Sequence record: NZ_CP088228.1
DNA from: a plasmid
DNA length: 64,000 nucleotides
Direction: 5' to 3' (one strand)
In this document: piece by piece, positions 3,744 through 19,527 of the stretch
Numbering within the stretch: the first letter of the stretch is position 1
How the letters are laid out: the number at the start of each line of letters is the position of its first letter
The notes under the pieces: generated by a model
What the model saw: the letters and a program-made list of their open reading frames with translations, nothing else
Told to the model about the DNA's origin: nothing
The model's database searches: none
Position numbers and translations under genes: made by a program

Positions 3744-3930
3744 CCGCCGTGCCTTCACGCTAACCCGGCCGCTGCGGTCGCAAGGGTTCACGTTGTCTCC
3801 GTCCTCACCCGTTCGCGCCCTGCACGGTGCATTCAGCCCGTGAAGGGCTTGCGCTGCGGCTTCGGCGTCGCCCTGGCGTCCTCCGCTTTACGCCGTGTTT
3901 TTGTGGCGGCACGGCGCAAGAGGGTGCCGG
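3744..3930 (+). repeat. GC-rich ~190-bp leading-region repeat, family B copy 1 (ssi/Frpo-like candidate)
   Basis: Near-identical copies at 4728-4916 and 6470-6652; conserved 10-bp stem/10-nt loop (cacggtgcattcagcccgtg core) plus complementary termini; ends about 18 bp before ORF 3948. Confidence 0.7.
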
Positions 3931-3947
3931 ATGCTGAGGACACAACC

Positions 3948-4727: not shown

Positions 4728-4916
4728 TACGCCGTGCCTTCACGCTAACCCGGCCGCTGTGGTCGCAAGGGTTCACGTTGTCTCCGTCCTCACCCGTTCG
4801 CACCTTTCACGGTGCATTCAGCCCGTGAAAGGCTTGCGCTGCGGCTTGCGGCGTCGCCCCTGCGCCCTCCGCTTTTCGCCGGGTTTTTGTGGCGGCACGG
4901 CGCAACAGGGTGCCGC
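4728..4916 (+). repeat. Family B repeat copy 2
   Basis: Aligns with 3744-3930 and 6470-6652; precedes methyltransferase gene. Confidence 0.7.
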
Positions 4917-4937
4917 ATATCAGAGAGGAGTGTGTCT

Positions 4938-5630
4938 ATGTCCCGTTTTATTCTGGGTGACTGCGTGCAGGTGATGTCCCGTTTTCCGGCGCGTGCCGTC
5001 GATTTTATTCTTACCGATCCACCGTACCTGGTTGGCTATAAGGACCGTACCGGCCGCACCCTGGCCGGGGACAACTCTGCCGAATGGCTCCAGCCCGCCT
5101 GTCATGAAATGTACCGCGTGCTGAAAAATGACAGCCTGATGGTGAGTTTCTATGCCTGGAACCGCGCGGATCTGTTTCTGAATGCGTGGAAAACGGCCGG
5201 TTTCCGGGTGGTTGGCCATATCGTCTTTGCCAAGAGCTACGCCTCAAAATCGACGTTCGTGGGTTACACCCATGAGAGCGCCTACCTGCTGGCGAAGGGA
5301 AGGCCGCAAACCCCGGACCGTCCCATCCCGGACGTGATCCCCTGGAAATACACGGGCAACCGACACCATCCGACGGAGAAGCCGGTGCAGAGCCTGCGGC
5401 CGCTGATTGAATCGCTCACGCGTCCGGGGGCTATTGTCCTTGACCCGTTCGCCGGAAGCGGCTCCACCTGCGTGGCCGCCGCCGAAGCCAGCCGCCGCTA
5501 TATCGGGATCGAGATGCTTGAGCAGTACCACGCCGCCGGCGTTCGACGTCTGGCACAGGTTGAACGGGCAAGAAGGATGCCGGCGGCCAATGACGGCGCG
5601 TTTTACCCCGACTATCCGGAGGCGGCATGA
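4938..5630 (+). CDS. Orphan beta-class N6-adenine (or N4-C) DNA methyltransferase
   Basis: 230 aa; motif IV DPPY (ILTDPPYLVGYKD) precedes motif I FAGSGST, the beta-class order; no adjacent endonuclease. Confidence 0.8.
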   Translation: MSRFILGDCVQVMSRFPARAVDFILTDPPYLVGYKDRTGRTLAGDNSAEWLQPACHEMYRVLKNDSLMVSFYAWNRADLFLNAWKTAGFRVVGHIVFAKSYASKSTFVGYTHESAYLLAKGRPQTPDRPIPDVIPWKYTGNRHHPTEKPVQSLRPLIESLTRPGAIVLDPFAGSGSTCVAAAEASRRYIGIEMLEQYHAAGVRRLAQVERARRMPAANDGAFYPDYPEAA

Positions 5631-6469: not shown

Positions 6470-6652
6470 TGCGCCGTGACTTCACTGTAGCCCGGCCGCA
6501 TCGGCCACAAGGGTTCGCTTACGCCTCCGTCCTCACCCGTTCGCACCCTTCACGGTGCATTCAGCCCGTGAAGGCTTTGCGCTGCGGCTTGCGGCGTCGC
6601 CCCTGTGTCCTCCGCTTTTCGCCGGTCTGTCGTGTCGTCACGGCGATGCCGG
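6470..6652 (+). repeat. Family B repeat copy 3
   Basis: Aligns with copies 1 and 2; precedes klcA. Confidence 0.7.
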
Positions 6653-6682
6653 AACCGAGAATATGTTAACCGTGGAGGATCT

Positions 6683-7111
6683 ATGAACCAGACCGTGACC
6701 TGTGATGCTGTTCGTCTTGAGGGTGCGCAGCGCCTGACTTTCCTGCCTGATTTGTTTGGCGGCGATTTTATGACGTCCGAGGCATCCGTGTACGCCTATG
6801 CCCAGCGTTACTGCCCTGAGTATCAGGGGGGATTCTGGCAGTTTTACCGGCTGCCGGAAGGTGGCGGATATATGGCGCCTGACGTGGAGAGCCTGACCCT
6901 GTGCAAACCGGACAACTGGTTTGAGCAGACTGTCAGCGGGGAAGTGGCGGGGATCATTCTCACGGCGCTGGTACTGAATCACCGGAGCTGGCACCACAGC
7001 AACCATGACCATGAAGAGCTGTGCCGCCACTTCTGCCGCCGTTATGAGCAGCTTATGGCATTTGCTGATACCCATCCGGAAAGCGCCACGATCTGGCGTG
7101 CCCTTGACTGA
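6683..7111 (+). CDS. klcA: KlcA/ArdB-family antirestriction protein
   Basis: 142 aa; matches KlcA pattern RL.FLP..FG...M..EA.VYA......YCP.Y.GG.W.FY.L..GG.YMAPD. Confidence 0.8.
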   Translation: MNQTVTCDAVRLEGAQRLTFLPDLFGGDFMTSEASVYAYAQRYCPEYQGGFWQFYRLPEGGGYMAPDVESLTLCKPDNWFEQTVSGEVAGIILTALVLNHRSWHHSNHDHEELCRHFCRRYEQLMAFADTHPESATIWRALD

Positions 7112-7985: not shown

Positions 7986-8025
7986 TGCGTGGCGTGGCGT
8001 GGCGTGGCGTGGCGTGGCGTGGCGG
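7986..8025. repeat. Pentanucleotide tandem repeat (GGCGT)x~8
   Basis: gcgtggcgtggcgtggcgtggcgtggcgtggcg seen directly; immediately upstream of repeat A1. Confidence 0.9.
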
Positions 8026-8073
8026 CTCTGAAACCCGATCAGCAAATCCTCTGAAAACTCCTGAATCCCACTT

Positions 8074-8548
8074 CTGGCCCCCTTCGGCTCCCGGCCCGCG
8101 TGGCGGTCCGGTCGTCGAGCCCCACTCCGCCAGGTCGGCTGCTGACGCACCCGCCGGGCTCCGCCGAACCCGCAAGCGGTTTCGGGCTGACGCTAGGGTC
8201 TGATGGCTGAGGTCAACCCCCTGGCTTGCACCGGCCGGAGGCCGGGCCGCCCTGACCGCGCCGGCGGAGCCGTCGCTTTAAGGCCGCCACGCCGTTCCGA
8301 CGTGTCGGGTGCGTGCATCCTGTTCATCCGGTGAGGCCATCCCCCGTGCGTCCTCACGCGGAGGGCTGCTTGTAGCACCGTCGTGTCGTCATCCGAAGGG
8401 TGAAATGCACGCCGCCAAAACTTTTTGCGTGCCGCAAAAAGTTTTGTCTGCGCCCTTCTCCTGCCGCCCCGCCGTTGCTCCTTTTGCCCTTTGCCGCGAG
8501 AGAACTCACCAGGGAGATGGCCAGCCATCACCACAGGAGAAAACCAGG
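8074..8548 (+). repeat. GC-rich ~0.5-kb leading-region repeat, family A copy 1 (ssi/Frpo-like candidate)
   Basis: Highly similar copies at 13980-14517 and 17288-17827; each ends in caccacaggagaaaaccaggATG; similarity continues ~45 nt into the downstream ORF. Confidence 0.7.
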
Positions 8549-8821
8549 ATGCACACACGAAACGTCAACGTCAAAACCGCCGCTCAAGAATCTTCCAGGA
8601 AGATGGGGGAAGAACAAAACCCTGTTTCTGTCGCACGGGAGTGGGTGGCTCAGGCCACTTCGCTGAAGGCGGGGGTCACCGTCACCCTGTCCGATGCGTC
8701 CCGATACGGCGACGTGCAGGTGGAGATCCGCACCAACGGAACGCTTAACTGGCGCGCCTGGTCGTTTGAACCGGATTTTCTTTTTGAACTGAAACGCAAT
8801 CTGCAATACGTGCAGCTTTAA
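8549..8821 (+). CDS. Hypothetical protein (90 aa) with repeat-encoded N-terminus MHTRNVNVKTAAQES
   Basis: ATG at 8549 preceded by RBS aggagaa; first 15 codons shared with ORFs at 14518 and 17828. Confidence 0.55.
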   Translation: MHTRNVNVKTAAQESSRKMGEEQNPVSVAREWVAQATSLKAGVTVTLSDASRYGDVQVEIRTNGTLNWRAWSFEPDFLFELKRNLQYVQL

Positions 8822-9297: not shown

Positions 9298-11310
9298 ATG
9301 GTCGCCACCAATACTACGGCAAAAAAACCAGCCAGGACCACCCGTCAGACAAAATCTGCGGAAAAAATCGCGCAGTCTACCGAGCAGAAGCTCGTCCAGC
9401 TGCTCGCTGATACGCCCGTGCAAATCTTCCCGTACTCCCGCCTGTCACACACTGGCTTAAACACGCGCATCATTCCGCATACCGATCAGGAAGTGGAAGA
9501 GATGGCAGACAGCATTCAGGCAATGGGCATCCTGCAGAACCTGATCGGTGCAGAACTGCCGGACGGTACGATCGGCATTGTCGGCGGGGAAGGTCGCCGC
9601 AGAGGCACAGGCATTCTGGTGATGCGCGGTGTGCTCGATGCGGACACGCCGTTTGTTCCGGTGAAAGTCCTGCCCGTGGAGATGGCTGTGGCGGCCTCGA
9701 TGATCGAGAACGGTCGACGTAAAAACATGCATCCCGCCGAGCAGATTATCGGTTTTCGTACCCTTCAACAGGAAGGTAAAACGGCCTCTCAGATCGGCGC
9801 ACTGATGGGCTACCACCCGCGCCACGTTCAGCGCTGCCTGAAGCTGGCGAATCTTGCCCCCTCCCTGCTGGATGCGCTGGCGCGGGATGCAATCTCCCTT
9901 GAACAGTGTGAAGTCCTGACACTTGCTGATACCCATGAGCGTCAGGAGCAGGTCTGGAAAGAGGCTGTTGAACAGTGGCGCGATCCAGCCGTACAGACTC
10001 TGCGCAGAATGGTGACCGACGACAAGATGGCCATCAGTCACCCGATGTTTGAGTATGTGGGCGAGGAAGCCTATACCGCCGCTGGCGGTACGCTGACCGC
10101 CGACCTGTTCAGCGACAAGGACAGCACCTTTGCCGATGCGGCGCTGGTGAAATCTCTGCTGGCTGGCAAGCTCACCGTGCTCGCCGCTCGCGTTAAGCAG
10201 GAGCAGGGCTGGGGCTGGGCTGAGTTCCGTATGACGGAACTGCGTGCCAGCGGTGAGGACGGTGAACAGTACCGTTTTGCGATGCCGAAAGCTGTCCTGA
10301 CGGAAGAAGAACAGAAGCGCGTCAGTGAGCTGGAAGAACAAATGGAAGCGACTGAAAGCTACGATGACGAATACGCGATTCAGGAGCAGATTGATGATAT
10401 CTACTGCGAGGCGACTTACCGCGAAGCCACGCCGGAATTTCGCGCCGCCCACGGTATCTGGGTGTCATGGGATGGTGACAATTTTCGGGTTCAGCCCGGT
10501 ATCCGCAGGCTGACCGACGAAGACCGGGTAGCTGAAGAACAGGCGCGTCAGGAACGTGAAAGCAATGTGATCAGACACACCACGCCTGACATTCCCGCCG
10601 ACGCTTATCCGGCAACGCTGGTAAAAGCTATGTCAGCCGAACGGACTCTCGCCGTTCAGGCCGAACTGGCGGGGCGTCCCGACGTATCGGTGGCGCTCCT
10701 GACGTGGACACTGTGCCTCAGTATGTTTGACCGCAGCTACGGTAAACGCAGCGAACCGCTGAAAGCCTCCGTGTCCTCGAATCAGTATCACCTTGCATCA
10801 CTGGCTCCATCCGGTGAAGAAGGGAAGGCGCTGACGGCGCTCAAAGCGCAGAAAGAGGCGCTTCAGGCAACGCTGCCCGAAAACTGGCATCTCGATTTCA
10901 CGTGGCTGCTTTCATGGTCAGCGGAGCAGGTGAACACCCTGCTGGGATTCTGTGCCGCGCACGGTATCAACGGTATTCAGGAACGTATGTACAACCATAC
11001 GCAGAAAAGCGAACTGGACGGGCTGGAAGCGGCGCTGGACTTTGACCTGCGCAAATGGTGGCAGCCGGATGCTGAGAGCTACTTCGGCAAGCTCACCATC
11101 GCCCAGATTGGCAAAGCCTACGAAGAAGCCGGACTCAGTGCCCGCGCCGGAGAGATTGTGAAGCTCAAGCGCCGCGATGCGGCGAAGGCCGCCGAGCAGG
11201 ATCTGAATGCTCAGGGCTGGCTGCCTGACTGGATGGTGCGCACATCACCAACCGCTGAGGCTGAAGAAGCCACCGAAACCGACGCTCACACCACTGACCA
11301 CGCTGCTTAA
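9298..11310 (+). CDS. ParB/KorB-like nuclease-domain protein of IncF leading regions (670 aa)
   Basis: N-terminal ParB-like segment (SRLSHTGLNTRIIPH...GILQNLIG...GRRR) and large size typical of the leading-region ParB-like protein that precedes psiB in F-like plasmids. Confidence 0.7.
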   Translation: MVATNTTAKKPARTTRQTKSAEKIAQSTEQKLVQLLADTPVQIFPYSRLSHTGLNTRIIPHTDQEVEEMADSIQAMGILQNLIGAELPDGTIGIVGGEGRRRGTGILVMRGVLDADTPFVPVKVLPVEMAVAASMIENGRRKNMHPAEQIIGFRTLQQEGKTASQIGALMGYHPRHVQRCLKLANLAPSLLDALARDAISLEQCEVLTLADTHERQEQVWKEAVEQWRDPAVQTLRRMVTDDKMAISHPMFEYVGEEAYTAAGGTLTADLFSDKDSTFADAALVKSLLAGKLTVLAARVKQEQGWGWAEFRMTELRASGEDGEQYRFAMPKAVLTEEEQKRVSELEEQMEATESYDDEYAIQEQIDDIYCEATYREATPEFRAAHGIWVSWDGDNFRVQPGIRRLTDEDRVAEEQARQERESNVIRHTTPDIPADAYPATLVKAMSAERTLAVQAELAGRPDVSVALLTWTLCLSMFDRSYGKRSEPLKASVSSNQYHLASLAPSGEEGKALTALKAQKEALQATLPENWHLDFTWLLSWSAEQVNTLLGFCAAHGINGIQERMYNHTQKSELDGLEAALDFDLRKWWQPDAESYFGKLTIAQIGKAYEEAGLSARAGEIVKLKRRDAAKAAEQDLNAQGWLPDWMVRTSPTAEAEEATETDAHTTDHAA

Positions 11311-11347: not shown

Positions 11348-11782
11348 ATGACTATGCAATATGACCTGAACCAAATCAACAAACTGACCGCCTCCGACCT
11401 GGAGTTTATCCGTCAGCAGGGCGAGGACGCGCGCCGCGCCCTCAGCGATACCGTGACCGGCCTCCTGTCGACACCAGAAGGATGGCACGTCTGCGCCGAA
11501 TACCGCAGCGAGTTCGGCGGCTTCTTCCCCGTCCAGTGCCGCTTCAGCGCGGACGGCAGCGATGACTGGCATCTGTGCGTGTGCAGCCCCGGCGAAGTCT
11601 CGCCGTACTGGCTTCTGGTACTGCTCTCCTCCGGCGGGGAAGTGGTGCGTACCCTTTACCAGAGTGACACGCTACAGCCTGACCGGATAAGCCAGCTGAT
11701 CGCGCAGCTGGCAGGTATGCGCCGCTTTAACTGCACTGCCCGCACCGTGGCGAACCTGATGAGCGGGGAGGTGACAGCATGA
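11348..11782 (+). CDS. psiB: PsiB, plasmid SOS inhibition protein B
   Basis: 144 aa from ATG 11348; EYRSEFGGFFPVQ...CSPGEVS... matches the PsiB family. Confidence 0.85.
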   Translation: MTMQYDLNQINKLTASDLEFIRQQGEDARRALSDTVTGLLSTPEGWHVCAEYRSEFGGFFPVQCRFSADGSDDWHLCVCSPGEVSPYWLLVLLSSGGEVVRTLYQSDTLQPDRISQLIAQLAGMRRFNCTARTVANLMSGEVTA

Positions 11783-12507
11783 TCCCATCCTCACACGCGC
11801 TCGTTTCCCTGAAGCCCGCCCGTCAGGCTGCAATACAGGCTATCAGCCATGTTGAGTCTGCCCGCGAACGCGGCGCACGACTGCCCGCCATGCCGTATGT
11901 GCGTACCTTTCTGCGTCTTCTCACGGGCAGCGGACGCCTCAACGCCACGGTGGCCAGTAAAATACCTGGCCTGCACTGGGTGCCAAATAACCGTCATTCG
12001 AACCTGAAACAGGTCGAGGAGGCGCTTAACACGATGATCGCCACCAGTGGCGAAGCCTGCCCGCTGCCGCTCACGATTGACGTACAGGCCGAACTGTTTC
12101 CTGAGGTCATGCACACCCGCACGGGTCGACGGCTGCACCGGTCCGGCATTAAGACCACGCGCCAGCTGCGCCGCCAGTCCCGTGAGTACGAACAGCGCTG
12201 GAAACTGCGCCAGAACCTGCTGGAGCAGGCGAAAATTGACCTGAATTTTCAGTCTCCGGAAACCGTCTGCACCTGGTACACCCGGTGGAGCGACGAGTTT
12301 GACGCGGCAGAGCTTGCCGGACCGTTCTGGCGCTGGCAGTCGCGGTTCGCGTCGCTGAAGGAACTTGACTGGCTTCGCATCAGCGGTGAGCCGCTGTATA
12401 CAGTGATGTATGAAATCCCGTTTATTGTCCGGGAAACACCTGAGCATGTTCGTGTCGCTGAACGCTGGCAGGTGCCAAATAAGCTGGCTGACCGGAGCGG
12501 TGTATGA
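11779..12507 (+). CDS. psiA: PsiA, plasmid SOS inhibition protein A
   Basis: 242 aa overlapping psiB stop; size, position and sequence character of PsiA. Confidence 0.75.
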   Translation: MIPSSHALVSLKPARQAAIQAISHVESARERGARLPAMPYVRTFLRLLTGSGRLNATVASKIPGLHWVPNNRHSNLKQVEEALNTMIATSGEACPLPLTIDVQAELFPEVMHTRTGRRLHRSGIKTTRQLRRQSREYEQRWKLRQNLLEQAKIDLNFQSPETVCTWYTRWSDEFDAAELAGPFWRWQSRFASLKELDWLRISGEPLYTVMYEIPFIVRETPEHVRVAERWQVPNKLADRSGV

Positions 12508-13455: not shown

Positions 13456-13645
13456 CTTACCGTGCTTAATGCAAGGAGGAGTAAACCATGAAACTGCCGC
13501 GAAACGCCCTTATCTGGTGCGTATTAATCGTGTGTATAACGCTCTTAATATTCACATGCCTGACCCGGAACCGCTTATGCGAACTCCGGCTAAAGGACGG
13601 GGACAGGGAGGTCGCGGCAAGCCTGGCTTACGAATCCAACGGTAA
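13430..13645 (+). CDS. mok: Mok-like overlapping reading frame
   Basis: 71-aa ORF overlapping hok in another frame, as in hok/mok/sok loci. Confidence 0.4.
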
Positions 13646-13649
13646 GTAG
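13488..13649 (+). CDS. hok: Hok/Gef-family type I toxin
   Basis: [53 protein letters not shown], close match to Hok/FlmA/SrnB; RBS aaggagga. Confidence 0.9.
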
Positions 13650-13754: not shown

Positions 13755-13979
13755 CATCCCGAAGGGTGCAGTCGCATGCATGAACAACCCGGAAGGTCTG
13801 TTCCCCTGCGGGGAACGGGGGAAGGGGGACGCGCCTTCGGCGCTGCCCCTCTGCTCCCTCCGCCTTGCCCTCTCTCCTGCCTGATTTTGCTGAAGTCAGC
13901 GCGCCATGAGTTACCTGCCTGTCTCTGGCTTCGGCCTGGTTTTCCCTGTGCTCTTCATCCCGGGCGTTATATCCGGCGT

Positions 13980-14517
13980 CCTGCTGGTTAACTTTCTCAG
14001 CTGCAGCTCAGTGGCCATAACCCAAAAAACGGGCAGGGCGATGGCCCCCTTCGGCTCCCGGCCAGCGCTGCTGTCCGGTCGTCGAGCCCCACTCCGCCAG
14101 GGCGGCCGCTGCGCACCCGCCGGGCTCCGCCGAACCCGCAAGCGGTTTCGGGCTGACGCTAGGGTCTGATGGCGAAGGTCAGGGGCTGCGGCTTCTCCGG
14201 CCGTGCCGTCCGGAACGCCTTCACCGCGCCGGCTGATGCCGTCGCTTTAATGGCGCCACGCCGTTCCGACGTGTCGGGTGTGTGCATCCTGTTCCCCCGG
14301 TGAAGCCATCCCCCGTGCGTCCTCACGCGGAGGGCTGCTTGTAGCACCGTCGTGTCGTCATCCGAAGGGTGAAATGCACTCCGCCAAAACTTTTTGCGTG
14401 CCGCAAAAACTTTCGTCTGCGCCCTTCTTCTGCCGCCCCGCCGTTGCTCCTTTTGCCCTTTGCCGCGAGAGAACTCACCAGGGAGATGGACAACCATCAC
14501 CACAGGAGAAAACCAGG
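13980..14517 (+). repeat. Family A repeat copy 2
   Basis: Aligns with 8074-8548 and 17288-17827. Confidence 0.7.
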
Positions 14518-14832
14518 ATGTACACACAAAACGTCAACGTCAAAACCGCCGCTCAGGAATCTTCCAGGAAGATAGGGGGAAAAACCGTGTCGTACACGTT
14601 CCTCGTCGCTGAGCAGAAAAAAAACTCAGCGGAGGAACCGGACGTTCTGGAGTTCAGCAGCCTGGCTGAGCTGAAGAAACTGCGCAGAAACTGCCCCGAA
14701 ACGATGCGCTGCACCTATTTCTACGCCCTCAGCAGCGGCGTCGATAAACAGTTCCGCCATATCCATGTGGCTGAAGCAGACCACTTCAAACAGTTTGTGC
14801 GCCTGATCGAGCGCGCAGGTATCGACATTTAA
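14518..14832 (+). CDS. Hypothetical protein (104 aa) with repeat-encoded N-terminus MYTQNVNVKTAAQES
   Basis: ATG 14518 after aggagaaaaccagg; diverges from 8549 ORF after about codon 17. Confidence 0.55.
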   Translation: MYTQNVNVKTAAQESSRKIGGKTVSYTFLVAEQKKNSAEEPDVLEFSSLAELKKLRRNCPETMRCTYFYALSSGVDKQFRHIHVAEADHFKQFVRLIERAGIDI

Positions 14833-14892
14833 ATCCGGTTCACCCCGTGCGGCACCCGCCGCACGGAACCTCATCAGACAGGAGCCAGAAAC

Positions 14893-15099
14893 ATGAGCGT
14901 TAACACCCCGACCGCAAAGGCCTGTTCCGGAAATGGGCATATGTCAGGCCCGGAGCCTAAAACAGCCACTCTCATTGCGATTTATGGCAATGAGGCGAGC
15001 TATTCATGGAACGTTCTGGAGGATCTGAAAGCTGCAGGTGCTTCTTATACCCGCAGAAACATTATCGCCGATATGTTCCGCCGTCTGGGCGTTCAGTAA
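14893..15099 (+). CDS. Small hypothetical protein (68 aa)
   Basis: ORF with RBS aggagcc. Confidence 0.4.
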   Translation: MSVNTPTAKACSGNGHMSGPEPKTATLIAIYGNEASYSWNVLEDLKAAGASYTRRNIIADMFRRLGVQ

Positions 15100-15176
15100 C
15101 CCGGATTTTCCTTCGACCCGATGCGGTGCTGTATAGCAGTTACCGCCCGGAACTAAATCAAACAGGAGCCTGAAAG

Positions 15177-15638
15177 ATGAACGTTAATCCTCCGACCGCT
15201 GCACCAATGGCCTTTTTCGTTCCGTCTCATAACGCCGTTTATGACCGCGCAACACAGCTGGACGGGCAGTGGGTGACTCAGCGTGAAGCGAAAACGCTGG
15301 AATCCCTTCGCCGTCTCTATCCGGATGCTGAGCTGATCTCCGCGACTCTGGTACAGGAAAAGCTGAATGACGGCTATCGCCGTCCCTGGGTGGAAATCAC
15401 CGAGGCCCGGTATATCGACCAGCTGGAAACGTTGCCGCCAGTGGACTGGTGCAGGGGGTATGGCGGGGAGTCGTTCAAATCGATGGAGTTTACGGGCGGG
15501 GATGTGACAGCGATTTTTGTCCGGTATGGCGCGCGTTTCTTTGAGTGCCATGACCTGCACACCCGCCATCACCGTGAGCTGATTGGCGACGTGATCGCAC
15601 GTTTCTGTCTCGATGCGTCGCTGAATTCCGCGCATTAA
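15177..15638 (+). CDS. Hypothetical protein (153 aa)
   Basis: ORF with RBS aggagcc. Confidence 0.5.
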   Translation: MNVNPPTAAPMAFFVPSHNAVYDRATQLDGQWVTQREAKTLESLRRLYPDAELISATLVQEKLNDGYRRPWVEITEARYIDQLETLPPVDWCRGYGGESFKSMEFTGGDVTAIFVRYGARFFECHDLHTRHHRELIGDVIARFCLDASLNSAH

Positions 15639-15721
15639 AAAAGCAGGGTTGCCCCTGCTTTCTCAACGCCGTATCTGGCCGACCAAAACGAGATACGGCA
15701 ATCACAACCAAAGTAAGGAGA

Positions 15722-15928
15722 TTGATCGTGAAATTTGACCCGCAAACTGTCGCACAGGCGAAGGCATTTGTAAATGCCCTCCGCGCCGGAAAACGCGCTC
15801 GCGTACCCGCGCTGCGCTTCTCACAGTGGCAGCCGTTCCTGTCCGTGGTAAATGCCGAAACGGGCTACGCCACCGATGCTGACTGTGGTCTGGCTGTCAG
15901 CGTCTACCCGGCGCTTGGACTGGCTTAA
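15722..15928 (+). CDS. Small hypothetical protein (68 aa)
   Basis: ORF with RBS aaggagat. Confidence 0.4.
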   Translation: MIVKFDPQTVAQAKAFVNALRAGKRARVPALRFSQWQPFLSVVNAETGYATDADCGLAVSVYPALGLA

Positions 15929-15968
15929 CAGGAGACGGCCGCCTGCGGGCGGCCGGTAAGGAGAAACC

Positions 15969-16760
15969 ATGTCACAACTGAGTTTTGAATCCCTGTTCCT
16001 GGCCGACCAGGCTGATCCGCAGCCGCGGGCTTCCGCACCGGCCCGGATGCTGTCGCCAGCTGAGGCGCGTAAAGAATTCGCCAGTGTCTTCCGTCAGATG
16101 GCGAAAAATATGCGCCGTTCCGAAGTGTTCCGCGACTTCATCACCCTCGCAGCCAGCGAGCTGGATATGGCCCGTATTCGCTCGCCGGAGAACATCGAAA
16201 ACAGCCGTCGCATCTGCGAACGGTATAAGCCGGACGATCTGGACGCCATGAAGCAGCTGTTCTGCCTGTTGGTGGAGGGGCTGGCGGGTGAAATTCATGA
16301 TTTCCTCGGCGCTCTGTATATGGAGCAGGAGCTGGGCGCGGACGAAATGGGGCAGTATTTCTCCCCGTCCTGCATCTCCCGCATGATGGCCGGACTACTC
16401 ATGCCCGGCGCTCAGGAGACGATAAAGCGTGAGGGGTGGATGACGCTCGATGAGCCTGCCTGTGGTAGCGCCGGAATGGTCATTGCCTTTGCATACTGGA
16501 TGGCTGAAGCGGGATATAACCCTTCACAACAGCTGTATGCCACCTGCACTGACATCGATCCAATGGTGGCAGATATGGCCTTTATCCAGCTGGCACTGCT
16601 GGGTATACCCGCGAAAGTCGTGACCGGTAATACGCTGACCCTGAAAGCGAACCGAGTGCGTTACACCCCTGTTTATTACTTCAATGACTGGCAGGGCCGT
16701 CTGGCATTTCGCAGTCGTCTGGATGCAATGAAAAAATTTCTGGCCACCGTGGCCGCCTGA
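15969..16760 (+). CDS. HsdM-like gamma-class N6-adenine methyltransferase-related protein lacking catalytic motif IV
   Basis: 263 aa; motif X-like GQYFSPS and motif I LDEPACGSAGMV as in type I HsdM, then YATCTDIDPMVADMAFIQLALLGI; no NPPF/Y-type motif before stop. Confidence 0.6.
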   Translation: MSQLSFESLFLADQADPQPRASAPARMLSPAEARKEFASVFRQMAKNMRRSEVFRDFITLAASELDMARIRSPENIENSRRICERYKPDDLDAMKQLFCLLVEGLAGEIHDFLGALYMEQELGADEMGQYFSPSCISRMMAGLLMPGAQETIKREGWMTLDEPACGSAGMVIAFAYWMAEAGYNPSQQLYATCTDIDPMVADMAFIQLALLGIPAKVVTGNTLTLKANRVRYTPVYYFNDWQGRLAFRSRLDAMKKFLATVAA

Positions 16761-16802
16761 CTGACAGAGCGGCAGGGCAGACCTGCCGCAGGGAGAGAGA
16801 AA

Positions 16803-17138
16803 ATGACAAGCAACACACTGAACGCTGTTCCGGCCACCGTGCTGGAGACGATGGCAGAACGCCTGCAAGGCCAGGCTGAACCGATAAAAATCCGCAGCAA
16901 CGACGATCACGCCGCGCTGGCTGCAGATGTGCTCTGGAAATTTGCCCGTAAAACCGGGCTGAACAGGGAAAGCGAAAGCGTGCAAACTGTCATCACGGAT
17001 TTTCTGGCCAATCTGCTGCACCTGTGCGAACAGTGCGAGCCGGACGGGGCTGGCATCGAGGGATTTAATGCCCTGCTGAACATGGCCATGATGCACTATG
17101 AGCAGGAAAACGGAGGGGACAGCGAAGAACCTGTTTGA
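16803..17138 (+). CDS. Hypothetical protein (111 aa)
   Basis: ORF with RBS gggagagagaaaATG. Confidence 0.45.
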   Translation: MTSNTLNAVPATVLETMAERLQGQAEPIKIRSNDDHAALAADVLWKFARKTGLNRESESVQTVITDFLANLLHLCEQCEPDGAGIEGFNALLNMAMMHYEQENGGDSEEPV

Positions 17139-17287
17139 TCGGGAGTCTGTGCCCTGATGGATACCATCAGGGCAACCGCAAAAAAACGCATCCCCTTCGG
17201 GGAAACGGGGAGGGCGAAAGCGCCTCCGGCGCTCCTGCCGTTCCCCGTTGCTGTGCTTCACTCCTTACCTGCGAGCATAGCCAGCAT

Positions 17288-17827
17288 CCTGCTGGTTAAC
17301 TTTCTCTGCTGCAGCTCAGTGGCCATAACCTGAAAACAGGGCAGGGTGATGGCCCCCTTCGGCTCCCGGCCAGCGCTGCTGTCCGGTCGTCGAGCCCCAC
17401 TCCGCCAGGGCGGCCGCTGCGCACCCGCCAGGCTCCGCCGAACCCCTTCGGGTTTCGGGCCATACGGCTAGGGTCTGATGGCGAAGGTCAAAGGCTGCGG
17501 CTTCTCCGGCCGTGCCGTCCGGAACGCCTTCACCGCGCCGGCTGATGCCGTCGCTTTAAGGCCGCCACGCCGTTCCGACGTGTCGGGTGTGTGCATCCTG
17601 TTCCCCCGGTGAAGCCATCCCCCGTGTGTCCTCACGCGGAGGGCTGCTTGTAGCACCGTCGGGTCGTCATCCAAGGGGTGAAATGCACTCCGCCAAAACT
17701 TTTTGCGTGCCGCAAAAACTTTAGTCTCCGCCCCTTTCCTTCCGCCCTTCGCCGTTGCTCCTTTGCCCTTTGCCGCGAGAGAACTCACCAGGGAGATGGA
17801 CAACCATCACCACAGGAGAAAACCAGG
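17288..17827 (+). repeat. Family A repeat copy 3
   Basis: Aligns with copies 1 and 2. Confidence 0.7.
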
Positions 17828-18121
17828 ATGCACACACGAAACGTCAACGTCAAAACCGCCGCTCAAGAATCTACCGGAAGATGTGATTCAAACCTCACCA
17901 TGTCCCAGTTCACGGATCTGTTTTGCTGGGTCCTGGCCGCATCGGAAGGGGAGCCACAACCGGCAATTTTTACGCCGCCAGAGAATGCCACTGAGCTGAC
18001 GTTAATAAATGACGAATGCCCGGATTATATCTCTGTCTGGTTTGTAGATGGTCGCCCGGTGGCAGCTGCAATGCCGCTGGATAATTTTCATCGCGTTATT
18101 TCTTCATCTCTTACTAAATAA
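17828..18121 (+). CDS. Hypothetical protein (97 aa) with repeat-encoded N-terminus MHTRNVNVKTAAQES
   Basis: ATG 17828; identical first 15 aa to ORF 8549, then unrelated sequence. Confidence 0.55.
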   Translation: MHTRNVNVKTAAQESTGRCDSNLTMSQFTDLFCWVLAASEGEPQPAIFTPPENATELTLINDECPDYISVWFVDGRPVAAAMPLDNFHRVISSSLTK

Positions 18122-18137
18122 TCAGGAGTAAATAAAA

Positions 18138-18959
18138 ATGGTCAGTTTCGCAAGCCGCTATCGTATGCCTACATCGATCCGCAAAGACCGTCCGCTGACG
18201 AATGATGAATTACAGCGCATCGTTCCGAGCGCGTTCTCATCGGATAAACACGATTCACGCTCTGAACGTTATACGTATATCCCGACCATTAACATTCTTG
18301 ATCGCTTACGTGATGAAGGTTTTCAGCCATATTATGCAACTCAGTCACGTACACGTGACCAGGATAAACGCGACTTTACAAAGCATATGCTTCGCCTGCG
18401 CCGTCATGACCAGATTAACGGAAAAGAAGTGCCGGAAATTATTCTGCTGAATAGCCATGATGGTTCAAGCAGCTATAAAATGATCCCCGGCATGTTCCGT
18501 CAGGTTTGCAGTAATGGTCTGGTTGCATGGAAGGATTTTGGTGAAATCCGCGTACCCCACAAAGGGGATATTGTCGGGCAGGTTATTGAAGGCGCTTACA
18601 CGGTGCTGAAAACATTCGACGCGGTTGATGAAAATATAGACCTCATGAAAAGCATTCAGCTCACTTTGCCTGAGCAGCGCCTTTTGGGTGCGACCGCCCT
18701 GGAACTTAAATACGATGGAAAACCAGCGCCGATTACACCGGAGCAAATTATTAACCCTCGCCGTGTGCTCGACAGAGGCCAGGATTTATGGACCACGTTT
18801 AACGTGGTGCAGGAAAATGTGATCCGTGGGGGAATTCGTGGCAGAACGGAAAAAGGGAAGATGACCAGAACGCGGGAAGTCACCGGAATAGATGGTGACA
18901 TCAAATTAAATCAGGTGCTCTGGAAAATGGCGGAGGAGTTTGCAAAACTGAAGGCCTGA
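18138..18959 (+). CDS. DUF932-type conserved leading-region protein (273 aa)
   Basis: Size, position next to oriT/geneX and sequence character of the ~270-aa protein conserved in IncF leading regions. Confidence 0.6.
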   Translation: MVSFASRYRMPTSIRKDRPLTNDELQRIVPSAFSSDKHDSRSERYTYIPTINILDRLRDEGFQPYYATQSRTRDQDKRDFTKHMLRLRRHDQINGKEVPEIILLNSHDGSSSYKMIPGMFRQVCSNGLVAWKDFGEIRVPHKGDIVGQVIEGAYTVLKTFDAVDENIDLMKSIQLTLPEQRLLGATALELKYDGKPAPITPEQIINPRRVLDRGQDLWTTFNVVQENVIRGGIRGRTEKGKMTRTREVTGIDGDIKLNQVLWKMAEEFAKLKA

Positions 18960-18987: not shown

Positions 18988-19527
18988 TTACTGTTCGTTG
19001 TTAAGCGATGCTGTTTCAGTAGTTTTTATCTCATGCTCCTTACCCGCAACTGGCGCCAGGCGTTCAGAAAGTAACTTTTTTCTGGCCAACAAAACGCGAT
19101 ATATATTTTTGATATCCTGAGCATACGCCTTGCGCTGCACAATCAGCTTTTTGCTCGGCCCAGTATTATACATCCCCACGCTGTCCCAGTTTTTTCCGTA
19201 TGACCTGAAGTTGTGCGCCAGTACCCATGCACCCGTATAAACGCAGATACATGGATCATTCAGCAGGCGCTCACGGGTAATATTGAAGTTTTTAAGTTTA
19301 CCGTAATGAGAGCTGTTTACCTGCATCCCACAGACATCTTCTGTTCCATTCCTGTTAGATCCATTTATCGCACCCGGCTTAAGTCTGCTCTCTTTAATCG
19401 AAATTGACATAAGCAGCAGTGGATCAATTTGATAATCTTTCCCGGCCTGATCAAAGCACATTTGTGGAGCTGCGCCAGCAGACATGGAAAGGGTCAGCAA
19501 TGCCGCAGGTAGTATCGATATTTTCAT
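18988..19527 (-). CDS. Lytic transglycosylase (F geneX/orf169, R1 gene 19 homologue)
   Basis: 179 aa with signal peptide and SLT catalytic segment KESRLKPGAIN...GMQVNSSH; collinear with F Orf169. Confidence 0.8.
   Translation of the reverse strand: MKISILPAALLTLSMSAGAAPQMCFDQAGKDYQIDPLLLMSISIKESRLKPGAINGSNRNGTEDVCGMQVNSSHYGKLKNFNITRERLLNDPCICVYTGAWVLAHNFRSYGKNWDSVGMYNTGPSKKLIVQRKAYAQDIKNIYRVLLARKKLLSERLAPVAGKEHEIKTTETASLNNEQ

What the first reader, a model, noticed from the sequence alone, without database searches (positions are those of the whole stretch)
15969..16760. HsdM-like methyltransferase-fold protein that has SAM-binding motifs but no catalytic NPPF/Y motif
- The 263-aa ORF carries a motif-X-like GQYFSP and a motif-I-like LDEPACGSAGMV, in the order found in type I HsdM (gamma-class).
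- An HsdM-like helix follows (YATCTDIDPMVADMAFIQLALLGI).
- The protein ends without any (N/D)PP(F/Y/W) catalytic motif.
- Inference: it cannot methylate but could still bind SAM and/or HsdS/HsdR partners. That would make it a candidate dominant-negative decoy of type I R-M complexes, encoded where anti-restriction genes cluster.
Basis: partly seen in the sequence, partly recalled or inferred. Interest (0 to 1): 0.75.

Follow-up and report, generated by a model that had tools for sequence, protein, structure and literature searches.

The report
Half an HsdM methylase on plasmids
This plasmid gene, labelled a DNA methylase in databases, encodes only the cofactor-binding front half of a type I restriction-system methylase with its catalytic motif altered; it belongs to a large undescribed family on plasmids, integrative elements and phages that probably helps incoming DNA establish itself, by a mechanism not yet known.

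Summary
ORF 15969-16760 (+) is a real, selected gene (dN/dS 0.13) for a 263-aa protein. It matches only positions 21-118 of the 311-position N6_Mtase profile. Motifs X, I, II and III, which bind S-adenosylmethionine (SAM), are intact. There is no (N/D)PP(F/Y/W).

- **Native length.** At least 923 clusters at 50% identity, almost all 215-340 aa, occur on 2,195 plasmids, on integrative elements and in 12 phage records.
- **Motif IV is replaced, not just lost.** Its position holds T-P-x-(H/Y/F/W), with T in 137 of 140 diverse members.
- **The whole back half is missing.** That includes strands 5-7, motif VIII and the C-terminal tail that anchors HsdM to HsdS.

DNA methylation of the HsdM kind is therefore very unlikely. 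An HsdS-capturing decoy is also unlikely.

The context supports an early anti-restriction or establishment role:
- The gene lies in the leading region between Frpo-like single-strand hairpin elements.
- KlcA/ArdB genes are often nearby.
- Relatives are fused to, or adjacent to, ArdC-N domains.

The mechanism is open. My best guess is a SAM-loaded, non-methylating HsdM mimic, with a SAM-directed activity as the main rival. No paper in the searched library describes the family.

The parts
15969..16760 (+). Gene for the 263-aa 'half-HsdM' protein, annotated 'N-6 DNA methylase' (WP_048209988.1) in identical plasmids
   Evidence: ORF list and sequence; 100% identical region in Enterobacter hormaechei plasmid NZ_OQ821071; Pfam N6_Mtase over part of the profile only; dN/dS 0.13
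15958..15963 (+). Shine-Dalgarno AAGGAG, 5 nt before the ATG
   Evidence: Read directly from the sequence
15975..15998 (+). N-terminal peptide QLSFESLF (residues 3-10), conserved in the enterobacterial clade; resembles a beta-clamp-binding motif (lead only)
   Evidence: M-S-Q-L-[SD]-F-x-[SD]-[FL]-F in 105 of 109 full-length close relatives; followed by a low-confidence variable linker; Hda motif QLSLPL/QLSLF in PMC5397184
16056..16334 (+). Helical N-terminal region (residues 30-122), including the D-F-L-G..Y-M-E helix that precedes motif X in HsdM
16350..16367 (+). Motif X, GQYFSP (residues 128-133)
   Evidence: Q 138/140, F 137/140, T/S 138/140, P 135/140 in diverse family members; aligned with EcoKI GQYFTP
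16446..16478 (+). Strand 1 and motif I, LDEPACGSAGM (residues 160-170); G166 corresponds to EcoKI G177
   Evidence: E/D162 139/140, P163 135/140, G166 138/140; alignment; G177D impairs AdoMet binding in EcoKI (PMC2647291)
16533..16562 (+). Strand 2 and motif II, LYATCTDIDP (residues 189-198), with the acidic residue D195 at the strand end
   Evidence: D195 137/140; predicted strand 189-195; following helix aligned to StySJI M
16617..16637 (+). Strand 3 and motif III, VVTGNTL (residues 217-223)
   Evidence: G220 131/140, N/D221 136/140, L223 129/140; same GNTL as EcoKI 247-250
16665..16676 (+). Degenerate motif IV position, T233-P234-V235-Y236, in place of N-P-P-F
   Evidence: T 137/140 (the other 3 are gaps), P 123/140, H/Y/F/W at 236 in 127/140; aligned to EcoKI N266-F269 by hand and by hhalign at low confidence
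16689..16754 (+). Conserved W241 and the single C-terminal helix (residues 241-262); the chain ends here, before strand 5 of the methyltransferase fold
   Evidence: W241 116/140; helix 241-262, pLDDT about 90; aligned to the EcoKI helix after NPPF
13969..14540 (.). Frpo-like repeated element upstream of the gene cassette (copy 2 of 3); probable single-strand promoter or priming hairpin
   Evidence: Direct repeats D1, D3, D4, D6; 14200-14540 folds as ssDNA into a long imperfect hairpin, -94 kcal/mol, z = -7.9; no sigma-70-like site in 13800-18200
17277..17846 (.). Frpo-like repeated element downstream of the cassette (copy 3 of 3)
   Evidence: Direct repeats D1, D3, D4; same inverted-repeat arms as copy 2
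15207..15638 (+). DUF1419-like gene, a frequent upstream neighbour in Enterobacterales
   Evidence: Weak Pfam match (E = 7e-4, below cut-off); annotated DUF1419; homolog at -1 or -2 in 18 of 61 loci
15722..15928 (+). 68-aa ORF directly upstream, same strand; no family match
   Evidence: homolog at -1 in 5 loci
16803..17138 (+). 111-aa ORF directly downstream, same strand; no family match and not conserved next to relatives

Best explanation
**What it is (shown).** The gene encodes a member of a large, so far undescribed family of 'half-HsdM' proteins carried by mobile elements.
- Present: a short helical N-terminal domain, then the first four strands of a gamma-class N6-adenine methyltransferase fold, then one closing helix.
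- Kept: every residue class that contacts S-adenosylmethionine (motifs X, I, II, III).
- Changed: catalytic motif IV is replaced by an invariant T-P-x-aromatic.
- Absent: strands 5-7, motif VIII and the HsdS-binding tail.

**What it does (inferred).**
- It binds SAM but does not methylate DNA as an HsdM does.
- It is made early in the recipient, from the leading-region cassette between Frpo-like single-strand hairpins.
- It serves plasmid establishment, most likely as an anti-restriction or anti-defence effector.

**Mechanism I commit to (least certain part).** It acts as a SAM-loaded mimic of the N-terminal-domain plus cofactor half of an M subunit. In that form it disturbs type I, and possibly related BREX or type IIG, methyltransferase cores. 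It would act at the M-M or M-R interfaces, or on the newly made duplex. It does not act by capturing HsdS.
For: Identity and anatomy:
- The Pfam N6_Mtase match is limited to profile positions 21-118 of 311.
- The AlphaFold2 model has pLDDT 82.9 and pTM 0.80, with four strands and a final helix.
- Residue conservation over 140 members sharing at most 50% identity is.
- T233-Y236 aligns with EcoKI N266-F269.

Native length and selection:
- phrog_5696 matches at 7e-81 over the full length.
- 923 clusters at E < 1e-30 are almost all 215-340 aa.
- dN/dS is 0.13.

Not a normal methylase:
- There is no canonical motif IV in 269 family sequences.
- EcoKI N266 or F269 changes abolish activity, and F345 stacks the flipped base (PMC2647291).
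- No hsdS or hsdR is adjacent.
- No homolog of the HsdM back half was found in the window or in 82 loci.

Early anti-defence context:
- The gene lies in the leading region of an F-type plasmid, about 3 kb from the lytic transglycosylase/traM junction.
- Frpo-like hairpin elements flank the cassette.
- A KlcA/ArdB gene lies within three genes in 20 of 61 loci.
- ICE proteins fuse ArdC-N, a zincin peptidase, a CbtA-like domain and this domain.
- Flavobacterium phage laban6-1 has a stand-alone ArdC-N gene whose end overlaps the start of the family gene.
- 2,195 plasmids carry it, 69% of them conjugative.
Against: - No experiment exists for any member, and no paper on the family was found.
- SAM binding is inferred from residue conservation only.
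- The anti-defence role rests on guilt by association. The neighbours are also compatible with a replication or partition-linked role: SSB, DnaD and ParB in phage FP_Taranis, and ParB, PsiB and PsiA in plasmids.
- ArdC-N was nearby in only 1 of 79 genome loci.
- No conserved partner gene was found.
- The pattern of conservation, pocket rather than surface, fits a SAM-centred activity at least as well as protein mimicry.
- The motif IV equivalence lies in a low-confidence part of the alignment.
- The model coordinates could not be inspected.
Confidence: 0.4

Rival explanations
1. One reading: a dominant-negative decoy that sequesters HsdS (and/or HsdR) so that functional R2M2S1 complexes cannot form.
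For: - HsdM-like fold and motifs.
- Position among anti-restriction genes.
- Mutations in the EcoKI HsdM N-terminal domain (L113, W115, S144) that abolish restriction hint at an M-R contact in a region this protein may retain (PMC2647291).
Against: - The HsdS anchor of M subunits is the C-terminal tail, and its removal abolishes assembly (PMC2647291; PMC9613975).
- The protein ends one helix after the motif IV position.
- It also lacks the loops (EcoKI 430-433, 464-470) that touch the HsdS recognition domains.
- The C-terminal helix is poorly conserved beyond W241, R/K244 and L245.
- HsdS conserved regions differ between type I families.
Confidence: 0.1
2. A SAM-directed activity rather than protein mimicry. 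The half-fold would bind SAM and either destroy or withhold it, a functional analogue of the phage T3 SAM lyase that starves SAM-dependent restriction and BREX. Alternatively it would transfer the methyl group to a substrate other than duplex-DNA adenine, using the invariant Thr-Pro-x-aromatic and Trp241.
For: - The most conserved positions of the whole family are exactly the SAM-pocket residues, plus a new invariant T-P and W. That is what is expected of an active site rather than of a partner interface.
- The family works without a conserved partner gene in very different hosts, from Enterobacterales to Melainabacteria and Clostridia, and in phages.
Against: - No known SAM lyase or hydrolase has this fold (own knowledge).
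- Stoichiometric sequestration of an abundant metabolite is implausible.
- A four-strand half-domain with an open face has no evident substrate site.
- Nothing here tests catalysis.
Confidence: 0.2
3. A role in DNA replication or establishment unrelated to defence, for example a SAM-sensing or clamp-associated factor acting during complementary-strand synthesis or partition.
For: - In phage FP_Taranis the gene sits in the replication/recombination module next to a ParB-like gene.
- A ParB-like gene also follows it in a Lachnospiraceae element.
- Plasmid neighbours include ParB-like, PsiB and PsiA genes.
- The enterobacterial clade has a conserved N-terminal QLSF.. peptide resembling a beta-clamp-binding motif.
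Against: - The clamp motif is a resemblance only, and it is absent from most of the wider family, whose members start near residue 40.
- Fusion to and adjacency with ArdC-N and frequent KlcA neighbours point to restriction evasion.
Confidence: 0.15
4. A genuine DNA adenine methyltransferase, as annotated. It would act either alone with an unusual minimal fold or as one piece of a split enzyme completed by another plasmid or host protein.
For: - Database annotation 'N-6 DNA methylase'.
- Pfam score above the gathering cut-off.
- Orphan methylases are common in leading regions (PMC11541004).
Against: - Only about a third of the profile is matched.
- Motif IV Asn/Asp is replaced by Thr in every member.
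- Strands 5-7 and motif VIII are absent.
- There is no target-recognition domain or hsdS gene.
- No back-half homolog was found in the window or in 82 loci.
- No conserved neighbour could complete it.
- The same leading region already carries a complete N6_N4_Mtase orphan methylase at 4938-5630.
Confidence: 0.05

Closest known systems
Type I R-M modification subunit HsdM (Pfam N6_Mtase PF02384; EcoKI, StySJI, PacII M1/M2)
   Same: - Helical region followed by motifs X, I, II and III in the same order and spacing.
- Same D-x-x-G-x-x-Y-E helix before motif X.
   Different: - About half the length.
- T-P-x-aromatic in place of N-P-P-F.
- No strands 5-7, no motif VIII, no C-terminal HsdS-binding tail.
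- No hsdS or hsdR neighbours.
- The Pfam HsdM_N model is not matched.
Orphan DNA methyltransferases of plasmid leading regions (PMC11541004; M.EcoGIX, PMC7736820)
   Same: - Same genomic niche and orientation in the leading region.
- Same database label.
- A family labelled 'N-6 DNA methylase / type I M subunit' appears in that paper's supplementary gene-family table. Whether it is this family, and whether that family is leading-region enriched, was not checked.
   Different: - Those are complete enzymes that protect by methylating the incoming DNA.
- This protein lacks the catalytic motif and half of the fold.
- A complete orphan methylase (N6_N4_Mtase) is present separately at 4938-5630.
Modules of polyvalent proteins of conjugative elements and phages (ArdC-N, zincin MPTase; PMC5512222)
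   Same: - Relatives of this domain form the C-terminal module of 651-656-aa ICE proteins that begin with ArdC-N and a zincin peptidase.
- A phage has ArdC-N and this domain as adjacent genes.
   Different: - The window protein is a stand-alone form.
- The methylase module described in that paper is the complete DarB-like enzyme fused to a helicase, not this truncated domain.
Catalytically dead methyltransferase-like partners such as METTL14 or DNMT3L (own knowledge, not tested here)
   Same: A methyltransferase-derived protein with a degenerate catalytic motif that is retained by selection for a non-catalytic role.
   Different: - Those keep the complete fold and have lost SAM binding.
- Here the SAM pocket is the best conserved part and the back half of the fold is gone.
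- They are obligate partners of an active paralog; no such partner gene is seen here.
Phage T3 SAM lyase and DNA mimics Ocr/ArdA (known anti-type I strategies; own knowledge)
   Same: An early-expressed product of an invading element placed to counter SAM-dependent restriction.
   Different: - No sequence or fold relation.
- pI 5.3 and net charge about -4, not the extreme acidity of DNA mimics.
- No evidence of SAM turnover.

Membership tests
N6_Mtase / type I HsdM | Profile match above the curated cut-off over the catalytic domain | tested here: inconclusive
   33.1 bits against a 20.4-bit cut-off, but only profile positions 21-118 of 311 are matched
N6_Mtase / type I HsdM | SAM-binding motifs X, I, II, III | tested here: met
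   GQYFSP, EPACGSAG, D195 and GNTL are present and 95-99% conserved in the family; aligned to EcoKI and StySJI M
N6_Mtase / type I HsdM | Catalytic motif IV (N/D)PP(F/Y/W) | tested here: not met
   TPVY at the aligned position; Thr in 137 of 140 members; no canonical motif at that position in 269 sequences
N6_Mtase / type I HsdM | Complete seven-strand methyltransferase fold, including motifs V-VIII | tested here: not met
   Four predicted strands, then one helix, then the chain ends 30 residues after T233; tail after the Thr has a median of 54 aa across the family
N6_Mtase / type I HsdM | C-terminal tail that forms the helical bundle with HsdS | tested here: not met
   No counterpart of EcoKI residues 470-529; requirement documented in PMC2647291 and PMC9613975
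N6_Mtase / type I HsdM | Encoded with hsdS (and hsdR) | tested here: not met
   Neighbours are DUF1419, small ORFs, DUF932 and a lytic transglycosylase; no such neighbours in 61 related loci
Leading-region orphan DNA methyltransferase | Catalytically competent enzyme that methylates the incoming DNA | not testable with these tools
   Sequence argues against it (no motif IV, half a fold); methylome or enzyme assay needed
Known anti-restriction families (ArdA, ArdB/KlcA, ArdC, Ocr) | Sequence or profile similarity to the family | tested here: not met
   Only N6_Mtase is matched in Pfam. NCBIfam gives two faint methyltransferase matches far below their cut-offs. PADLOC matches only MTase models and mad2. 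The plasmid's KlcA is a separate gene at 6683-7111
Polyvalent-protein module (Iyer et al. 2017 sense) | Occurs fused with ArdC-N, MPTase or other effector domains in large proteins of mobile elements | tested here: met
   Met for relatives P0140, P0144 and P0179 and for phrog_23459; the window protein itself is stand-alone
Beta-clamp-binding proteins | QL[SD]LF-type peptide in a flexible terminus that binds DnaN | not testable with these tools
   QLSFESLF at residues 3-10, conserved in 105 of 109 close relatives; resemblance to Hda QLSLPL; binding untested

The most novel reading that the evidence does not exclude
The half-HsdM family would be a new class of anti-restriction effector.
- It would be a SAM-loaded fragment-mimic of the modification subunit.
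- It would be brought to incoming DNA in one of two ways: by an ArdC-N single-strand-binding partner or fusion, or, in enterobacterial plasmids, by an N-terminal clamp-binding peptide.
- It would block or misdirect type I, and perhaps BREX or type IIG, complexes on the newly synthesised duplex. Alternatively it would use its invariant Thr-Pro-x-aromatic/Trp site for a new SAM-dependent reaction.

This would mean that thousands of database 'N-6 DNA methylases' on resistance plasmids are not methylases.
Probability: 0.3. Interest if true: 0.8.

Novelty: new variant of a known kind. Interest (0 to 1): 0.6.

Why it matters
- **Spread.** The gene family sits on about 3% of sequenced plasmids (2,195 of 72,556). 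These include many conjugative Klebsiella, Enterobacter, Acinetobacter and Pseudomonas plasmids. It also occurs on ICEs and in phages.
- **Annotation.** It is uniformly annotated as a DNA methylase. Surveys of leading regions may therefore have counted it among protective orphan methylases. If it cannot methylate, those counts are inflated and a separate function is hidden under the label.
- **An unusual design.** The cofactor pocket is kept, the catalytic Asn is replaced by an invariant Thr, and half of the fold is discarded. This is not a described way of building a pseudoenzyme. It points to a SAM-dependent but non-methylating step in the first minutes after DNA entry.
- **Practical interest.** That step is a possible new route of restriction evasion and a possible target for limiting plasmid spread.

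Tried and rejected
- **Local truncation or pseudogene.** Rejected. The family is conserved at this length in hundreds of clusters and is under purifying selection.
- **Split methylase with a nearby back half.** tblastn of EcoKI HsdM found nothing in the window or in 82 related loci. Clustering of neighbours in 61 loci gave no universal partner.
- **DNA mimic like Ocr or ArdA.** pI is 5.3 with a family median of 5.4, so there is no extreme acidity.
- **Relation to the IncC anti-type I genes vcrx089/090.** These encode an AAA+ ATPase and an unrelated protein. Dead lead.
- **General ArdC-N neighbourhood.** A profile of five ArdC-N sequences found such a gene next to the family gene in only 1 of 79 genome loci (L070). 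The link is recurrent (fusions, one phage, one Photorhabdus locus) but not general.
- **Objective alignment through motif IV.**
  - Default hhalign and hmmsearch alignments to EcoKI stop after motif I, because of an EcoKI insertion.
  - Only the greedy hhalign setting reaches motif IV. It agrees with the manual alignment but at low confidence.
- **Literature.** Ten full-text searches found no description of a truncated or inactive HsdM-like protein of plasmids. The F-plasmid translocated-protein paper (PMC11288057) mentions no methylase.
- **Fusion protein P0194.** This 704-aa protein has the domain at its N-terminus. Its remaining 470 aa match nothing in Pfam or PDB.
Full report
**1. The observation**

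The ORF exists as described: 15969-16760 on the + strand, 263 aa. An AAGGAG ribosome-binding site lies at 15958-15963.

The window is the leading region of an F-type conjugative plasmid. The surrounding 3 kb is 100% identical to Enterobacter hormaechei plasmid p11A14071_B_KPC (NZ_OQ821071). There the gene is annotated 'N-6 DNA methylase', WP_048209988.1.

- Pfam N6_Mtase matches at E = 4.9e-8 (33.1 bits, cut-off 20.4). It covers only profile positions 21-118 of 311, which is residues 123-226.
- PADLOC type I MTase models match the same stretch.
- NCBIfam gives nothing significant.
- GQYFSP and EPACGSAG align with EcoKI HsdM GQYFTP and DPAAGTAG.
- The next strand and helix (YATCTDIDP...LALLGI) align with StySJI M.
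- No (N/D/S)PP(F/Y/W/H) is present in the protein.

**2. Not a broken gene but a family**

- PHROG 5696, a 250-position profile of unknown function, matches end to end at 7e-81.
- The large protein collection returns 567 relatives. The closest 120 are nearly all 260-280 aa and come from Enterobacterales.
- An exhaustive profile search of 1.84 billion cluster representatives finds 923 clusters at E < 1e-30. Of the best 150, all but four are 143-340 aa long.
- Against the Enterobacter soli ortholog, dN/dS is 0.13.
- tblastn finds the protein on 2,195 of 72,556 PLSDB plasmids. Of these, 69% are predicted conjugative. The main hosts are Klebsiella, Enterobacter, Acinetobacter, Pseudomonas, Citrobacter and Serratia.
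- It is also in 12 phage records.
- Genome loci extend the range to Melainabacteria, Clostridia, Bacteroidetes, Haemophilus and Chromobacterium.

**3. Anatomy**

The AlphaFold2 model, built from a 21-sequence alignment, has pLDDT 82.9 and pTM 0.80.
- Residues 1-29 are poorly ordered.
- Helices run from residue 30 to 155.
- Strands lie at 158-163, 189-195, 215-221 and 226-232.
- A short helix lies at 234-238.
- One final helix covers 241-262.

I aligned 140 members that share at most 50% identity. The most conserved positions are these:

| Feature | Residues and counts (of 140) |
|---|---|
| Motif X | Q129 138, F131 137, T/S132 138, P133 135 |
| Motif I | E/D162 139, P163 135, G166 138 |
| End of strand 2 | D195 137 |
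| Motif III | G220 131, N/D221 136 |
| Family-specific | T233 137 (the other three are gaps), P234 123, H/Y/F/W at 236 127, W241 116 |

G166 corresponds to EcoKI G177, whose G177D change impairs AdoMet binding (PMC2647291).

Counting from the shared GNTL motif, the sequence KANRVRY-TPVY lines up with EcoKI KAHIVAT-NPPF. hhalign, when allowed to extend, produces the same pairing: T233/N266, P234/P267, V235/P268, Y236/F269. Its confidence over that stretch is low.

So motif IV is not simply absent. It has been replaced by an invariant Thr-Pro-x-aromatic. The chain then forms one helix, the counterpart of the helix that follows NPPF in EcoKI, and stops. EcoKI HsdM continues for another 263 residues. 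Those residues carry:
- strands 5-7;
- F345, which stacks the flipped adenine;
- the loops that touch HsdS;
- the C-terminal domain, residues 470-529.

Across the family the tail after the Thr has a median of 54 aa, too short for the missing half.

One caveat on topology. Only four residues separate predicted strands 3 and 4. I could not inspect the coordinates, so the exact strand order is not settled.

**4. Consequences for activity and for the decoy idea**

- EcoKI loses activity when N266 or F269 is changed (PMC2647291).
- With Thr at that position, no motif VIII, no recognition subunit and no hsdS gene nearby, DNA methylation of the HsdM type is very unlikely.
- No homolog of the HsdM back half is present in the window or in 82 related loci.
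- Clustering of neighbours in 61 loci found no universal partner gene.
- A split enzyme is therefore not supported.

- The stable M-S anchor is the bundle formed by the C-terminal tails of M with the HsdS coiled coil.
- Deleting the PacII tails abolishes assembly (PMC9613975).
- EcoKI HsdM lacking about 43 C-terminal residues folds normally but no longer binds M1S1 (PMC2647291).
- The present protein has no such tail.

What it may retain is the N-terminal-domain surface. In EcoKI this surface bridges the two M subunits over the DNA, and r- m* mutations there suggest an HsdR contact. Interference at those interfaces is possible but untested.

**5. Context**

Gene order along the + strand of the window:

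| Feature | Coordinates | Evidence |
|---|---|---|
| Complete N6_N4_Mtase orphan methylase | 4938-5630 | |
| KlcA/ArdB | 6683-7111 | |
| ParB-like gene | 9298-11310 | |
| psiB | 11348-11782 | |
| psiA | 11779-12507 | |
| hok | 13527-13649 | |
| Focal cassette | about 14.5-17.2 kb | |
| DUF932 | 18138-18959 | |
| Lytic transglycosylase (- strand) | 18988-19527 | |
| traM | from about 20172 | |

The focal gene therefore lies about 3 kb from the region where oriT is expected.

Three copies of a roughly 570-nt element lie at about 8000-8570, 13969-14540 and 17277-17846. The second and third bracket the cassette. The segment 14200-14540 folds as single-stranded DNA into a long imperfect hairpin (-94 kcal/mol, z = -7.9). 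No sigma-70-type promoter match occurs between 13800 and 18200. This fits Frpo-type single-strand promoters, which drive early expression in the recipient (PMC11541004). That expression is an inference, not a measurement.

Among 61 related loci:
- a KlcA homolog lies within three genes in 20;
- a DUF1419 homolog lies at -1 or -2 in 18.

In distant hosts the neighbours are recombinases, toxin-antitoxin pairs, ParB and replication genes of mobile elements.

Three observations tie the domain to ArdC-N, the single-strand-binding module of the ArdC anti-restriction protein:
- ICE-borne proteins of 651-656 aa carry ArdC-N, a zincin peptidase, a CbtA-like domain and this domain in one chain.
- Flavobacterium phage laban6-1 has a stand-alone ArdC-N gene whose end overlaps the start of the family gene.
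- A Photorhabdus locus has ArdC-N just upstream.

This link is recurrent but not general: it was found in 1 of 79 genome loci.

In phage FP_Taranis the gene sits in the replication/recombination module, before a ParB-like gene.

**6. Mechanism**

*Shown:*
- an HsdM-derived half-domain with a conserved SAM pocket;
- a replaced catalytic motif;
- no HsdS anchor;
- native length and purifying selection;
- a mobile-element, leading-region niche.

*Inferred:*
- SAM binding;
- early expression;
- an anti-restriction or establishment role.

*Best guess (confidence about 0.4 for the whole statement, less for the last step):* a SAM-loaded, non-methylating mimic of the front half of an M subunit. It would disturb type I and related methyltransferase cores at M-M or M-R interfaces or on the new duplex.

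*Main rival (0.2):* a SAM-directed activity. The pattern of conservation looks like an active site. A new invariant T-P...W has appeared where the catalytic loop was.

*Other rivals:*
- a replication or partition-linked role (0.15);
- the HsdS/HsdR-sequestering decoy (0.1);
- a true methylase (0.05).

**7. Comparison and novelty**

The protein passes the N6_Mtase score cut-off. It fails four defining features of an HsdM: motif IV, the complete fold, the C-terminal tail, and hsdS/hsdR linkage. It should not be filed as a methylase. It matches no known anti-restriction family.

The polyvalent-protein survey (PMC5512222) describes complete methylase-helicase modules but not this truncated domain. 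The leading-region survey (PMC11541004) treats methyltransferases as one protective class. Its supplementary gene-family table lists a family named 'N-6 DNA methylase / type I M subunit' that may be this one. I did not check that, nor whether that family is among those reported as leading-region enriched.

Ten full-text searches found no paper on a truncated HsdM-like protein of mobile elements.

I rate it a new variant of a known kind. It is a widespread, mis-annotated pseudo-methylase family of unknown mechanism. It deserves experiments, and most of the ones proposed here are quick assays.

Noticed in passing
window 15975-15998 (residues 3-10 of the focal protein): The N-terminal peptide M-S-Q-L-[SD]-F-x-[SD]-[FL]-F is conserved in 105 of 109 close full-length relatives. 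A variable, poorly ordered linker follows it. It resembles the beta-clamp-binding motif QLSLF and the N-terminal QLSLPL of Hda. Most distant family members lack this extension.
   Followed up: partly
window about 8000-8570, 13969-14540, 17277-17846: There are three copies of a roughly 570-nt element, 70-97% identical between copies. Each has arms about 222 nt apart, and the element folds as ssDNA into a long hairpin (z = -7.9). They are probably Frpo-type single-strand promoters or priming signals that divide the leading region into cassettes.
   Followed up: partly
window 3745-3932, 4730-4918, 6473-6661: A second family of about 190-nt direct repeats (three copies, 65-96% identical) lies upstream of the orphan methylase and klcA genes. 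Their function was not examined.
   Followed up: no
window 4938-5630 and 6683-7111: The same leading region carries a complete orphan DNA methylase (N6_N4_Mtase, E = 1.4e-37) and a KlcA/ArdB anti-restriction gene (Antirestrict, E = 4e-25). The plasmid therefore has a real methylase in addition to the truncated one.
   Followed up: partly
window 15937-15954: A perfect GC-rich hairpin, GGCCGCC-TGCG-GGCGGCC, lies between the stop of the upstream 68-aa ORF and the Shine-Dalgarno of the focal gene. No T-run follows it. It may be a transcript-stabilising or translational-coupling element.
   Followed up: no
window between 7111 and 9298, compared with L001 (NZ_OQ821071): Gene coordinates shift by 52 nt relative to the otherwise identical reference plasmid somewhere in this interval, which contains the first Frpo-like copy. 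This implies an indel there.
   Followed up: no
L090 4681-5678 (Flavobacterium phage laban6-1 gp26-gp27): A stand-alone ArdC-N ssDNA-binding gene overlaps by 4 nt the start of a 217-aa member of the family. This is the same pairing that is fused in ICE polyvalent proteins. A SymE-like toxin gene lies just upstream.
   Followed up: partly
window 15207-15638 and related loci: A DUF1419-like gene and a small 70-90-aa ORF precede the family gene in 18 of 61 loci, all Enterobacterales. This may be a conserved three-gene unit of unknown function.
   Followed up: partly
protein P0194 (704 aa, metagenomic): This is the only relative among the top 150 with the domain at the N-terminus. It is followed by about 470 residues that match nothing in Pfam or PDB.
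   Followed up: partly
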